49,442 nt of DNA from a virus (lineage: Duplodnaviria > Heunggongvirae > Uroviricota > Caudoviricetes), in the IMG/VR virus record IMGVR_UViG_2537561691_000009; one strand, 5' to 3'. Made by a program: the position numbers and the translations under genes. This document shows positions 4,632-17,164 of this stretch, piece after piece (the stretch's first letter is position 1; every line of letters starts with the position of its first letter). The notes beneath the pieces are model-generated. The model made no database searches, was not told the origin of the DNA, and worked only from the letters and a program-made list of their open reading frames with translations.

Positions 4632-4888
4632 TGTTTTTGGTTTTAACTGTTCCGCGTGCGCTCAGCCGCATTCACCACATCACAAAATTCACTTTAAAAA
4701 GGGCGGCAGAGCAGTCACGGAGTAAAACTGATACCGCCAAACGTCACCAGAAAATTGATAACAGAGGGCGTTGCAGCGGAGTTGTCACTTAAGCGTATGG
4801 TCAACCTGACAACCCGGTGTCCTCAACGGAGGAAGAAATAACCCCGCCATACTTACCGCCGCGCCATTTCGCGGAGTGCCACAACCGG

Positions 4889-6472: not shown

Positions 6473-6494
6473 ATTAGGCATAGCCTATTGACAA
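6473..6494. promoter_or_regulatory. Putative operator, right copy of 22-bp inverted repeat (attaggcatagcctattgacaa) in divergent promoter region
   Basis: Exact reverse complement of 5829..5850; contains TTGACA; lies between the divergent repressor and cro-like genes. Confidence 0.55.
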
Positions 6495-6544
6495 TTGCAT
6501 TAGGCTAAGCCTAATATTGTTGCGTGTTTTTTGGAGTTCATTCG

Positions 6545-8782: not shown

Positions 8783-9139
8783 ATGGAAATAAAACCAGAG
8801 GATGAGTTAAGCAATATCGTTTTATTTCCGGTAAAAGAGGATGACCCTCGTAATCAGGTTAATTTTCTTTATGAGCCATCGGAAAGACCATATTGTCATC
8901 ACGCCTCTGTCCGGGTTGACGAAAAAGAGCGTCAGGTCCGCTGTAAAATCTGCGGTGCAGTTGTGGAGCCATTTGACTGGATGCTCTCTGTGGCGAAAAG
9001 AGAAACCAGACTGGCAGATGATGTAAGGCTCTTGCGTCAAGAGGAGCGGGAAAGGCGAAAAAATATAGAAAAGCTAATTCAGATTGAGCGTAACGCGAAA
9101 GCGCGGATACGCAGGGCGACAAAATCCAGAACTGAATAA
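8783..9139 (+). CDS. Hypothetical protein with CxxC...CxxC zinc-ribbon-like motif
   Basis: Start placed at MEIKPEDE behind aaaggagaggagc SD; CHH...CKICG cysteines. Confidence 0.5.
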   Translation: MEIKPEDELSNIVLFPVKEDDPRNQVNFLYEPSERPYCHHASVRVDEKERQVRCKICGAVVEPFDWMLSVAKRETRLADDVRLLRQEERERRKNIEKLIQIERNAKARIRRATKSRTE

Positions 9140-9232
9140 TTAAATTTAGCTCTGTTAAAAATTTAATCCTTAACCGGAGGGATTTCTGCACCCTCAGAAC
9201 ATCAGGAGGCCGCCCGAAAGGGCGGTAGTTAA

Positions 9233-9415
9233 ATGCGAAAGTTTAAAATAATTATTGAAACGGGAATAGCCGGTGGAGATTTCGAGGATGAATTCGAAGT
9301 GGATGATGATGCGACGCCTGATGAAATACATGACGAAGCAAAAGATATTTTCTTTAACTACTGCAATTACTCATATCACGAAATAAAAGACGAAGAGGAA
9401 GAACAAAATGGCTGA
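9233..9415 (+). CDS. Small highly acidic protein, 60 aa
   Basis: About one third D/E residues; overlapping start with next ORF (ATGGCTGA). Confidence 0.5.
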   Translation: MRKFKIIIETGIAGGDFEDEFEVDDDATPDEIHDEAKDIFFNYCNYSYHEIKDEEEEQNG

Positions 9416-9584
9416 TTTTGGTTCAACTAAATACAACGTCAGTTTTGAAGAATGGCATGAACTGTTAATGGACTATGCAGAGTTACGTGGTGGCAGTGCT
9501 GCTGATGCTGAAGCATGGCGGGATGATTATGAAGCAGGAAAAACTCCGGTCGAAGCATATTGTGATGAGTGGGGCGATGAATGA
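9408..9584 (+). CDS. Small acidic protein, 58 aa (MADFGSTKYNVSFEEWHELLMDYAELRGG...)
   Basis: Hand-translated, below track threshold; translationally coupled to flanking ORFs via ATGA-type overlaps. Confidence 0.45.
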   Translation: MADFGSTKYNVSFEEWHELLMDYAELRGGSAADAEAWRDDYEAGKTPVEAYCDEWGDE

Positions 9585-9838
9585 GCGAGGTTAATTATCA
9601 GGAAGGGCATGAAACGGCGGGGCAAGCAAAAACAGTGGCATGGCGATATCGCTACGTGAAAAAAAAGGCGTTACGGACTTTCAGGGGAAGTAGTGGTCTG
9701 GTGACTGGAAATATGTACCGAAAAAAGAGGATTGTAACGACAGGCCGAACTATGAAATTCAGGCCTTATTCACTGCCCCGCCAGTCCCGGTTACATCAGA
9801 AGAACTGGTTAAAGCTGTGCACTTTTATGAACAACTAA
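9581..9838 (+). CDS. Hypothetical basic protein
   Basis: 85-aa ORF with start overlapping the previous stop. Confidence 0.35.
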   Translation: MSEVNYQEGHETAGQAKTVAWRYRYVKKKALRTFRGSSGLVTGNMYRKKRIVTTGRTMKFRPYSLPRQSRLHQKNWLKLCTFMNN

Positions 9839-10247: not shown

Positions 10248-10379
10248 ATACAGCGAACGCCATTGGTTTAGTTGGATATTTACTGTGCCGGACAAAAACG
10301 GTTTGCGGGGAAATCTTAGTTAAGTAGAATGACTGCGGGTGCTTGAGGCTATCTGTCTCAGGCATGAACACCAAAAGGC

Positions 10380-10460
10380 AGATAGAGAAAAGCCCCAGTT
10401 AACATTACGCGTCCTGCAAGACGCTTAACATTAATCTGAGGCCATATCTATGCTCTACAC
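10380..10460 (-). ncRNA. sok: Putative Sok-like antisense RNA region (approximate)
   Basis: Inferred from hok/sok locus architecture (antisense RNA overlapping mok start); boundaries not determinable from sequence alone. Confidence 0.3.
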
Positions 10461-10662
10461 ACGTAGGTTAGCCTCTTACGTGCCGAAAGGCAAGGAGAAG
10501 CAGGCTATGAAGCAGCAAAAGGCGATGCTAATCGCCCTGATCGTCATCTGTTTAACCGTCATAGTGACGGCACTGGTAACGAGGAAAGACCTCTGCGAGG
10601 TACGAATCCGAACCGGCCAGACGGAGGTCGCTGTCTTCACAGCTTACGAACCTGAGGAGTAA
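10450..10662 (+). CDS. mok: Mok (modulator of killing) overlapping reading frame
   Basis: 70-aa ORF in frame with and extending upstream of hok. Confidence 0.55.
   Translation: MLYTRRLASYVPKGKEKQAMKQQKAMLIALIVICLTVIVTALVTRKDLCEVRIRTGQTEVAVFTAYEPEE
10507..10662 (+). CDS. hok: Hok/Gef family type I toxin, 51 aa
   Basis: MKQQKAMLIALIVICLTVIVTALVTRKDLCEVRIRTGQTEVAVFTAYEPEE has Hok-family TM helix and conserved C-terminal motif; 5' leader resembles hok mRNA leaders. Confidence 0.85.
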   Translation: MKQQKAMLIALIVICLTVIVTALVTRKDLCEVRIRTGQTEVAVFTAYEPEE

Positions 10663-16623: not shown

Positions 16624-16699
16624 GGCCCTTTAGCTCAGTGGTGAGAGCGAGCGACTCATAATCGCCAGGTCGCTGGTTCAAATCCAGCAAGGGCCACCA
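16624..16699 (+). tRNA. tRNA with CAU anticodon (Ile2/ileZ-like, or Met)
   Basis: Cloverleaf parsed by hand: acceptor ggccctt/aagggcc, anticodon loop ctCATaa, T-loop ttcaaat, 3' CCA. Confidence 0.8.
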
Positions 16700-16706
16700 T
16701 CACATA

Positions 16707-16783
16707 CCGCCATTAGCTCATCAGGAAAGAGCGCCAGCCTTCGAAGCTGGTTGCGCGGGGTTCAAGTCCCCGATGGCGGTCCA
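16707..16783 (+). tRNA. tRNA-Arg (anticodon UCG)
   Basis: Acceptor ccgccat/atggcgg, anticodon loop ctTCGaa, T-loop ttcaagt, 3' CCA. Confidence 0.8.
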
Positions 16784-16796
16784 TTATCTGCATCAT

Positions 16797-16873
16797 GCGT
16801 TGTTAGCTCAGCCGGACAGAGCAATTGCCTTCTAAGCAATCGGTCACTGGTTCGAATCCAGTACAACGCGCCA
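16797..16873 (+). tRNA. tRNA-Arg (anticodon UCU)
   Basis: Acceptor gcgttgt/acaacgc, anticodon stem attgc/gcaat, loop ctTCTaa, T-loop ttcgaat, 3' CCA. Confidence 0.8.
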
Positions 16874-17111
16874 CACTTATTTTCCCTGGCTCGCTTTTGT
16901 GGGCCTTTTTTTTAAATGTCTCACAATTTAGGCGGTTGACTGTTGTCTGGTTTGCGGGGAGTTTGTTAAAAGAAACTGGCATGGTGAATCCCCCTGTGCG
17001 GAGGGGCAATCAGCGAGTAGGTATATGGGATAATCGCGGATTCAGGTGCTGGTACTGAATTCACCGGGAGGCACCCGGCACCATGCAATGGCACATAGCG
17101 CCACTCTCCAG

Positions 17112-17133
17112 CCCCTCTCCGGAGGGGCTGTTT
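17112..17133 (+). terminator. Possible terminator hairpin (cccctc-tccg-gagggg + T-rich tail)
   Basis: GC stem-loop followed by ctgtttat. Confidence 0.35.
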
Positions 17134-17164
17134 ATATTGATTTTGTCAGATGTGAGTAAACTGC

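What the first reader, a model, noticed from the sequence alone, without database searches (positions are those of the whole stretch)
9233..9584. Two translationally coupled, highly acidic small proteins: possible DNA-mimic anti-defence candidates
Seen in sequence: ORF 9233..9415 (60 aa) is about one third Asp/Glu, and the overlapping ORF 9408..9584 (58 aa, missed by the 60-aa cut-off) is also strongly acidic; they are coupled by overlapping stop/start codons. Established knowledge: small very acidic phage proteins often act as DNA mimics that inhibit restriction or other nucleic-acid-targeting defences (Ocr/ArdA-like logic). The function here is pure inference.
Basis: inference. Interest (0 to 1): 0.4.

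Follow-up and report, generated by a model that had tools for sequence, protein, structure and literature searches.

The report
Two small acidic prophage accessory proteins
Two real, overlapping genes in a common Rac-like E. coli prophage encode tiny, strongly acidic, well-folded proteins from two phage/plasmid families of unknown function; they are unrelated to any known DNA mimic, so an anti-defence role remains a reasonable but untested guess.

Summary
ORF1 (9233-9415, 60 aa, 33% D/E, net -15) and ORF2 (9408-9584, 58 aa, 28% D/E, net -12) overlap by 8 nt (ATGGCTGA). They are the two most acidic ORFs in the window. Both are genuine genes: dN/dS is 0.00-0.13, both have diverse homologues, and both give confident AlphaFold models.

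ORF1 belongs to Pfam DUF7167 and folds as a beta-hairpin plus helix with an acidic tail. ORF2 belongs to phrog_519, has no Pfam family, and folds as a three-helix bundle.

They lie in the early rightward operon of a Rac-like lambdoid prophage, after the replication genes. The intact pair is present in 1750 of 5426 complete E. coli genomes.

Outside E. coli lambdoid phages the two families occur separately. DUF7167 is found in early regions of unrelated phages. ORF2's family is found in Ackermannviridae, Autographiviridae and more than 500 mostly conjugative plasmids. They are therefore independent cassettes, not an obligate pair.

Negative charge is conserved across both families. No sequence or fold relation to Ocr, ArdA, Gp2, p56 or any solved protein was found.

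The most likely role is stoichiometric binding of a host nucleic-acid-binding protein. An anti-defence role is possible but unproven.

The parts
9233..9415 (+). ORF1: 60-aa acidic protein of family DUF7167 / phrog_1997. Predicted beta-hairpin (residues 2-9, 16-23), helix (29-43) and a floppy acidic tail.
   Evidence: sequence and composition. PF23768 at 55.1 bits against a cut-off of 24.4; phrog_1997, E 9e-31. (family). AF2 model, pLDDT 84; dN/dS 0.04-0.13.
9408..9584 (+). ORF2: 58-aa acidic protein of phrog_519 with no Pfam family. Predicted three-helix bundle (helices 13-26, 34-42, 47-55) with conserved F13, W16, L20, A24, D33, W37, Y41, G44 and G56.
   Evidence: phrog_519, E 4.5e-23. (family). 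AF2 model, pLDDT 89; dN/dS 0.00-0.08 against copies carrying enough substitutions to measure; no Pfam hit for any of 62 members.
9204..9226 (+). Translation-initiation region of ORF1. The SD AGGAGG (9204-9209) is followed directly by a 7-bp GC-rich hairpin with a GAAA loop (arms 9209-9215 and 9220-9226). Six further nt then lead to the ATG at 9233.
   Evidence: sequence.: -15.5 kcal/mol centroid, z -2.5; one compensatory double change in L019, and homology with phage ArgO145 starts at this element.
9395..9399 (+). SD (GAGGA) of ORF2, lying inside the Glu codons of ORF1's acidic tail, 8 nt before the ATG at 9408.
   Evidence: Read directly from the sequence.
9581..9838 (+). ORF3: basic 85-aa remnant whose ATG overlaps ORF2's stop (ATGA). 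It is a pseudogene here. The intact form is 171 aa in other strains, and an Ead/Ea22-like gene occupies the same slot in phage ArgO145.
   Evidence: RefSeq 'frameshifted; internal stop'; intact 171-aa form. Ead_Ea22 in ArgO145.
8783..9139 (+). Upstream 118-aa basic protein with a weak zinc-ribbon match and a charged C-terminal region (phrog_1621). It accompanies the pair in some prophages and in ArgO145 but is replaced by other genes elsewhere, so it is context and not a fixed partner.
   Evidence: present in L001, L002, L003 and L019; absent in L004, L017, L018 and L020.
6488..6517 (+). PR-like sigma-70 promoter match (TTGACA-18-TAATAT) at the head of the rightward early operon that contains the pair. 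No terminator-like site on the + strand occurs before 10730.
   Evidence: consensus scan only. One search gives the gene order racR / HTH / YdaT / replication / DUF977 / hypothetical / ORF1 / ORF2.

Best explanation
ORF1 and ORF2 are two separate, gene-sized accessory cassettes that happen to be linked in E. coli lambdoid prophages. They are transcribed early from the PR-type rightward operon, or from the PL exo-xis/Ea22 region in Stx phages.

Each encodes a stably folded single-domain mini-protein of about 60 aa whose exposed surface is densely and conservedly negative. Neither has a catalytic motif, a membrane segment or any capacity to bind DNA.

The most likely mode of action, which is inferred and not shown, is stoichiometric binding. 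The anionic surface would occupy a basic nucleic-acid-binding surface on a host or rival-element protein and so inhibit or redirect it during the first minutes of infection, induction or plasmid entry. ORF1 may act as a dimer.

The target is unknown. A defence nuclease is one candidate class. Host RNA polymerase, nucleoid proteins and RecBCD-type nucleases are equally plausible.

Shown here: the genes are real and under purifying selection, they belong to these families, their folds are predicted with confidence, their charge is conserved, they are restricted to mobile elements, and the two families are independent of each other. Inferred: that they bind and inhibit a target protein.
For: - Real coding genes: dN/dS 0.00-0.13, RefSeq CDS, family HMM hits.
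- Confident compact folds.
- Charge is a family trait. DUF7167 has mean net charge -11.5 (range -18 to -7) over 57 diverse members. The ORF2 family has mean -9.7 (range -15 to -4) over 62 members. Many columns are over 75% acidic while D and E interchange.
- Distribution limited to mobile elements. ORF2's family occurs in 198 phage records (Kuttervirus, Taipeivirus, Koutsourovirus, lambdoids) and 554 plasmids, of which 516 are conjugative. DUF7167 occurs in early or DNA-metabolism regions of Enterococcus Herelleviridae, a Klebsiella Guernseyvirinae phage and metagenomic phages.
- Gene-precise cassette exchange: homology with an IncI2 plasmid spans exactly 9408-9580.
- Early operon position with no intervening terminator. 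The same pair sits in the PL exo-xis/Ea22 region of ArgO145.
- Copies in cryptic prophages carry stop codons, so the genes appear to serve the phage rather than the lysogen.
- Natural tandem two-domain DUF7167 proteins hint at a dimer.
Against: - No target, partner or phenotype is known for either family. Literature searches for the family names and accessions found nothing relevant.
- I could not obtain model coordinates, so I could not test whether the carboxylates follow a DNA-like geometry.
- Strong acidity alone is not specific.
- The conserved E22 and K5 of ORF1 probably sit on neighbouring strands of the hairpin, so part of the charge conservation may be structural.
Confidence: 0.5

Rival explanations
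1. One reading: one or both proteins are DNA mimics that block restriction-modification or other DNA-targeting defences. This would be functionally Ocr/ArdA-like, although not homologous.
For: - Conserved high negative charge.
- Early expression context.
- ORF2's family is shared between virulent phages, temperate phages and conjugative plasmids, a distribution typical of entry or anti-defence genes.
- In the IncI2 plasmid the homologue lies about 15 kb from the mobC/relaxase end, on the side opposite the relaxase.
- Known small DNA mimics of similar size exist (own knowledge; EVADES lists 11 DNA-mimic anti-defence proteins).
- A possible DUF7167 dimer.
Against: - No similarity to Ocr, ArdA or any solved mimic by profile or fold.
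- Absent from the supplements of three anti-defence studies searched by peptide and accession and from the EVADES supplements.
- Not clearly within a plasmid leading region.
- In Kuttervirus the homologue sits just downstream of the major capsid gene, not in an obvious early anti-defence locus.
Confidence: 0.13
2. They modulate the phage developmental decision or host physiology, like the other small exo-xis/early-region proteins of lambdoid phages (Orf60a, Orf61, Orf63, Orf73, Orf55). One possible route is binding RNA polymerase or a host regulator.
For: - In Stx phage ArgO145 the pair lies in the exo-xis/Ea22 region, whose small genes shift the lysis-lysogeny balance (PMC8614690).
- ORF1's predicted order of elements (two strands, a helix, and possibly a third strand that DSSP did not call) and its size resemble what that paper describes for lambda Orf55 and T7 Gp2 (lambda Orf55 sequence read).
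Against: - hhalign finds no relation to T7 Gp2 (probability 0.14; Gp2 sequence verified against 2WNM) or to lambda Orf55 (probability 0.25).
- Both families also occur in strictly virulent phages, and ORF2's in plasmids, which have no lysis-lysogeny decision.
Confidence: 0.2
3. They are acidic partners, chaperones or neutralisers for a basic protein of the same element. Candidates are the neighbouring 118-aa zinc-ribbon protein, the Ead/Ea22-like ORF3 product, or adjacent exonuclease or replication proteins. In this reading ORF1 and ORF2 might work together as a complex.
For: - Tight overlap of ORF1, ORF2 and ORF3.
- Both flanking products are basic, with pI 9.4 and 11.1.
- The 118-aa gene, ORF1 and ORF2 travel together into ArgO145.
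- DUF7167 genes abut 'exonuclease' genes in two unrelated phage groups.
Against: - Neighbours are not conserved. The upstream gene is replaced in L004, L017, L018 and L020.
- ORF3 is a pseudogene in this window while ORF1 and ORF2 are intact.
- Distant homologues have entirely different neighbours.
- Two proteins with net charges of -15 and -12 are unlikely to form a stable heterodimer (inference).
Confidence: 0.1
4. The ORFs are non-functional or are gene-calling artefacts.
For: They are very short, and some copies are pseudogenised.
Against: dN/dS is far below 1. Homologues at 35-60% identity occur across distant phages with conserved hydrophobic cores. The AF2 models are confident.
Confidence: 0.02

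Closest known systems
Pfam DUF7167 (PF23768) / phrog_1997
   Same: ORF1 scores 55.1 bits against a gathering cut-off of 24.4, over its full length, and hits phrog_1997 at E 9e-31. It shares the family consensus MxKxxVxxETxxxG...EVxDDATxEEIEExA..FN.
   Different: Nothing distinguishes ORF1 from the family. It is an ordinary member, and the family has no assigned function.
phrog_519 (uncharacterised phage/plasmid family; includes Det7 gp16, phiKDA1 gp26, and ORFs on IncI2 and an IncT plasmid)
   Same: ORF2 matches over its full length at E 4.5e-23. 61 of 62 aligned relatives hit the same PHROG.
   Different: The PHROG profile is 143 positions long and ORF2 covers only positions 76-137. No Pfam model exists for the family.
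T7 Ocr (gp0.3) and ArdA, the classical DNA-mimic anti-restriction proteins
   Same: Strongly acidic, encoded on mobile elements, expressed early. A competitive decoy mechanism is conceivable.
Small acidic phage inhibitors with a strands-plus-one-helix fold: T7 Gp2 (RNAP), phi29 p56 (UDG), lambda Orf55 (modelled)
   Same: Similar length (55-64 aa), acidic, and a similar general mix of strands and one helix, as described in PMC8614690 and from own knowledge.
Lambdoid exo-xis region small proteins (Orf60a, Orf61, Orf63, Orf73, Ea22)
   Same: Same genomic niche in Stx phages: small, overlapping, early genes.
   Different: No homology. tblastn of ORF1 against 50,697 phage records does not list lambda among its 35 matching records. 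ORF2's 198 matching records were only partly listed, so lambda was not checked for it. The characterised exo-xis proteins are modelled as DNA-binding or RNAP-binding and are not polyanionic.

Membership tests
Pfam DUF7167 (PF23768) | Score above the curated gathering threshold over the whole domain | tested here: met
   55.1 bits against 24.4, residues 2-53 aligned to profile positions 1-60/60. RefSeq names it 'DUF7167 family protein'.
phrog_519 (ORF2) | Significant match to the PHROG profile | tested here: met
   E 4.5e-23; 61 of 62 relatives match the same PHROG.
Ocr (T7 gp0.3) family | Sequence or profile similarity to Ocr | tested here: not met
   No Pfam hit other than DUF7167 and a sub-threshold AnkX_ins match. 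Profile searches of PDB sequences return no Ocr chain at E up to 10.
Ocr (T7 gp0.3) family | Elongated all-helical dimer mimicking bent B-DNA | tested here: not met
ArdA family | Sequence or profile similarity and the roughly 165-aa three-domain architecture | tested here: not met
   Searches give no hit. The proteins are 58-60 aa and single-domain.
DNA-mimic proteins (functional class, not a homology family) | Dense negative surface charge conserved across the family | tested here: met
   net charge -15 and -12; family means -11.5 and -9.7; many columns over 75% acidic with D/E interchange.
DNA-mimic proteins (functional class, not a homology family) | Carboxylate array that superposes on the phosphate backbone of B-DNA | not testable with these tools
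   Model coordinates are not exposed. Only secondary structure and pLDDT were returned.
DNA-mimic proteins (functional class, not a homology family) | Binds the DNA-binding site of a target protein and competes with DNA | not testable with these tools
   Needs co-folding or biochemistry.
T7 Gp2-like RNAP inhibitors | Detectable homology to Gp2 | tested here: not met
Lambda Orf55 | Detectable homology | tested here: not met
   hhalign probability 0.25.
Known anti-phage defence system components (PADLOC) | Match to any PADLOC model | tested here: not met
   no hit for ORF1, ORF2 or ORF3.
Obligate two-gene module (ORF1 + ORF2) | Co-occurrence of the two families wherever either is found | tested here: not met
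   The genes are linked in E. coli lambdoid prophages: the intact pair is in 1750 of the 1909 genomes with any match. Elsewhere they are separate. ORF2's family is in 198 phage and 554 plasmid records, against 35 and 15 for ORF1's. Distant members have unrelated neighbours.

The most novel reading that the evidence does not exclude
ORF2's family (phrog_519, no Pfam entry) could be a previously unrecognised broad-host anti-defence or host-takeover decoy. It is shared by virulent Ackermannviridae and Autographiviridae, temperate lambdoid phages and more than 500 mostly conjugative plasmids, including the mcr-1-associated IncI2 backbone (that association is my own knowledge). DUF7167 could be a second, independent family that acts as a dimeric polyanionic mimic. 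If so, a third of complete E. coli genomes would carry a linked pair of new inhibitor families.
Probability: 0.15. Interest if true: 0.6.

Novelty: new member of a known kind. Interest (0 to 1): 0.3.

Why it matters
If either protein proves to inhibit a defence system or a core host DNA- or RNA-binding protein, it would add a new and very widespread inhibitor family. The pair is present in about 32% of complete E. coli genomes. ORF2's relatives are on IncI2 and other conjugative resistance plasmids and in virulent phages of genera used in phage-therapy work (own knowledge). That would bear on phage host range, plasmid spread and tool development.

As things stand, the result mainly tidies the annotation. 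It establishes two real, independent, conserved accessory cassettes of unknown function, not a coupled Ocr-like system.

Tried and rejected
- **Homology to known families.** Pfam, NCBIfam, PHROGs and PADLOC scans gave only DUF7167, phrog_1997 and phrog_519, all of unknown function.
- **Solved relatives.** Single-sequence and profile searches of all PDB sequences found nothing meaningful. The designed armadillo-repeat hits to A1 have no matched stretch that passes on its own, and I attribute them to composition.
- **T7 Gp2 and lambda Orf55.** I tested the remembered resemblance with hhalign and rejected it as homology.
- **Obligate pair or heterodimer.** Rejected on distribution and on like charges.
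- **Fixed three-gene module with the upstream 118-aa gene.** Rejected.
- **Toxin-antitoxin reading.** Considered and rejected. There is no conserved toxin neighbour, and ORF3 is a pseudogene while ORF1 and ORF2 stay intact.
- **Consistent exonuclease neighbour for DUF7167.** Seen in two lineages but not in six other contexts.
- **Plasmid leading region.** The IncI2 homologue lies about 15 kb from the presumed oriT, on the side away from the relaxase, beyond repA. This is inconclusive.
- **Literature.** No paper mentions DUF7167, PF23768 or the two WP accessions. The two hits were word-start matches to 'phrog519' that I did not open. Peptide and accession searches in the supplements of Silas et al. 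2023 and 2025, Samuel & Burstein 2024 and EVADES found nothing.
- **Paralogues.** None in the window.

Full report
**1. Observation**

The sequence and the mechanical ORF list confirm ORF1 at 9233-9415 (+, 60 aa) and ORF2 at 9408-9584 (+, 58 aa). ORF2's ATG precedes ORF1's TGA, giving an 8-nt overlap (ATGGCTGA). ORF2's TGA overlaps the ATG of a third ORF (ATGA, 9581).

ORF1 has 20/60 D+E and net charge -15. ORF2 has 16/58 D+E and net charge -12. They are the two most acidic of the 174 ATG-started ORFs of at least 50 aa in the window. ORF2 has its own SD (GAGGA, 9395-9399), which lies inside the Glu codons of ORF1's tail.

**2. Are they genes?**

Yes.
- RefSeq annotates both, as WP_001224662.1 'DUF7167 family protein' and WP_000753060.1 'hypothetical protein'.
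- ORF1 passes the Pfam DUF7167 threshold at 55.1 bits against 24.4 and matches phrog_1997. ORF2 matches phrog_519.
- Against intact E. coli copies and an IncI2 plasmid copy, substitutions are overwhelmingly synonymous, with dN/dS 0.00-0.13. The only exception is the nearly identical ArgO145 copy of ORF2, which has four changes in total and is therefore uninformative.
- An exhaustive search found 99 cluster representatives for ORF1, most of them 50-60 aa. A profile search found 137 proteins for ORF2.
- AlphaFold2 with these alignments gives confident models. ORF1 has pLDDT 84, with a beta-hairpin (2-9, 16-23), a helix (29-43) and a floppy acidic tail. ORF2 has pLDDT 89 and three helices (13-26, 34-42, 47-55).

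**3. Context**

The window is a Rac-like lambdoid prophage. In strain WS3294A, which is 99.9% identical over this stretch, the prophage lies next to ompW. The gene order is: integrase, excisionase, exonuclease, dicB/DicF, racR, then rightward HTH (cro-like), YdaT, an HTH_36 replication protein, DUF977, a 118-aa zinc-ribbon protein, ORF1, ORF2, the ORF3 pseudogene, hokD/sok, DUF968, rusA and Q.

A PR-like promoter match lies at 6488-6517. No terminator-like site occurs on the + strand before 10730. The pair is therefore most simply read as part of the early rightward transcript.

The intact pair is found in 1750 of 5426 complete E. coli genomes, with up to four places per genome. It is a very common cassette.

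**4. Modularity**

In the Stx2a phage ArgO145 the same 118-aa gene, ORF1 and ORF2 sit in the leftward exo-xis/Ea22 region. An extra 70-aa gene is inserted there, and an Ead/Ea22-like gene follows ORF2. Homology with the window begins at ORF1's SD and hairpin.

The upstream neighbour is replaced by other genes in several prophages.

Homology with an IncI2 plasmid covers exactly 9408-9580, that is ORF2 from its ATG to its last sense codon. On that plasmid the gene follows a DUF1187 gene with the same 8-nt overlap, downstream of a CaiF/GrlA-type regulator and upstream of SPFH/NfeD and the T4SS genes.

Outside E. coli lambdoid phages the two families are not linked.
- ORF2's family is in 198 phage records. 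These include Kuttervirus and Taipeivirus, where it sits just after the major capsid gene, and Koutsourovirus phiKDA1, where it sits between the DNA polymerase and the exonuclease.
- ORF2's family is also in 554 plasmids, 516 of them conjugative. About 412 are at 80-90% identity; the copies I listed and inspected are about 60-kb records, one of them typed IncI2. Others are on an IncT and an IncFIB/IncU plasmid.
- DUF7167 is in only 35 phage and 15 plasmid records. It is always found in same-strand arrays of small early or DNA-metabolism genes with varying neighbours.

The pair is therefore a historical linkage of two independent single-gene cassettes.

Copies at about 89% identity in decayed prophages carry stop codons. 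This suggests the genes benefit the phage rather than the lysogen.

**5. What the proteins look like**

Both families are uniformly acidic. DUF7167 has mean net charge -11.5 (range -18 to -7). The ORF2 family has mean -9.7 (range -15 to -4). Many columns are over 75% acidic while D and E interchange, which points to selection on charge itself.

Hydrophobic and aromatic positions are conserved as expected for a core. In ORF1 these are I/V6, I8, F21, V23, I32, A36 and F40-41. In ORF2 they are F13, W16, L20, A24, W37, Y41 and W55.

Two natural proteins carry two complete DUF7167 domains in tandem, which hints that the domain works as a dimer. Nothing suggests catalysis, membrane association or DNA binding.

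**6. Comparison with known systems**

There is no relation to any characterised protein.
- PDB sequence and profile searches were empty.
- BFVD returned only uncharacterised phage proteins.
- PADLOC was empty.
- The resemblance I recalled between ORF1 and T7 Gp2 or lambda Orf55 is not supported as homology. Lambda Orf55 is itself modelled as Gp2-like or p56-like in PMC8614690.
- Neither family appears in the literature or in the anti-defence supplements I could search.

ORF1 is a plain member of DUF7167 and ORF2 a plain member of phrog_519. Neither is a member of the Ocr or ArdA family.

**7. Mechanism**

The best-supported reading has confidence of about 0.5. Each protein is a stand-alone anionic mini-domain made early, and it acts by binding a basic, nucleic-acid-binding surface of a host or competitor protein. 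The steps shown and the steps inferred are separated in the best-explanation section.

The anti-defence DNA-mimic version has a probability of about 0.13-0.15. It is compatible with the data, especially for ORF2 because of its distribution across phages and conjugative plasmids, but it has no direct support.

The other rivals are:
- a developmental or host-physiology modulator like the exo-xis proteins (about 0.2);
- an acidic partner for a basic protein of the same element (about 0.1);
- an artefact (about 0.02).

**8. Verdict**

The feature is ordinary in the sense that these are widespread, already catalogued hypothetical-protein families.

What is added here:
- The two genes are independent cassettes rather than a functional pair.
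- Their charge is a conserved family trait.
- Their folds are unrelated to known mimics.
- ORF2's family is shared with conjugative plasmids and virulent phages.

Interest is modest, at 0.3.

Noticed in passing
window 9204-9235: ORF1 has a split ribosome-binding site. The SD AGGAGG (9204-9209) is followed at once by a 7-bp GC hairpin with a GAAA loop (arms 9209-9215 and 9220-9226; -15.5 kcal/mol). Six further nt then lead to the ATG. The SD is 23-24 nt from the ATG in linear sequence but about 6 nt away if the hairpin folds, as described for T4 genes 38 and 25 (own knowledge). One relative (L019) has CCACCC...GGGTGG instead of CCGCCC...GGGCGG, a compensatory double change. The element moves with ORF1 into phage ArgO145. 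More distant DUF7167 genes have ordinary SD spacing.
   Followed up: partly
window 9408-9580 vs L009 12001-12173 (IncI2 plasmid NZ_CP011294.1): Nucleotide homology (86%) between the prophage and IncI2 plasmids starts at ORF2's ATG and ends at its last sense codon. This is a gene-precise exchange. On the plasmid the upstream gene is DUF1187 instead of DUF7167, with the same 8-nt start/stop overlap.
   Followed up: partly
window 9581-9838: ORF3 is very basic (pI 11.1) and RefSeq calls it a frameshifted pseudogene. It is the remnant of a 171-aa protein that is intact in strain Ecol_881 (L019 1849-2364). In ArgO145 an Ead/Ea22-like gene occupies this slot, starting at ORF2's stop.
   Followed up: partly
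L017, L020, L004 (E. coli cryptic prophages and phage PhiR42_1): Copies of the pair at about 89% identity carry internal stop codons and a GTG start. They sit next to a degraded SAM-methyltransferase gene and, in L017 and L020, IS remnants. The cassette decays once the prophage is defective.
   Followed up: partly
proteins P0152 (105 aa) and P0160 (129 aa): These natural proteins consist of two complete DUF7167 domains in tandem, which suggests the single-domain proteins may act as dimers.
   Followed up: no
protein P0076 (E. coli, 72 aa): An ORF2 variant with an internal 14-residue tandem duplication (DDYEAGKTPVEAYC twice).
   Followed up: no
window 9140-9227 vs L003 5666-5748 (ArgO145): The intergenic sequence upstream of ORF1 (92% identity over 88 nt) recurs in ArgO145 downstream of the Ead/Ea22-like gene, not upstream of ORF1. 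It may be a conserved boundary sequence used in mosaic recombination.
   Followed up: no
window 8783-9139: The 118-aa basic protein (phrog_1621) has a weak TFIIB-type zinc-ribbon match, a C..HH...CxxC pattern and a highly charged C-terminal region. Its function is unknown, and it co-travels with the pair in some phages.
   Followed up: partly
window 4701-4752 (-), 10337-10512 (+), 16624-16873 (+), 16950-17139 (+): Rfam and ARAGORN find DicF sRNA, the sok antitoxin RNA of the hokD locus, a cluster of three tRNAs (Met-CAT, Arg-TCG, Arg-TCT) and the STnc100 sRNA. All are typical lambdoid prophage cargo.
   Followed up: no
L005 4001-4171 and L006 4001-4171: DUF7167 genes directly abut, and overlap, genes annotated 'exonuclease' in a Klebsiella Guernseyvirinae phage and in Enterococcus Herelleviridae. 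This was not seen in six other contexts, so it may be coincidence.
   Followed up: partly
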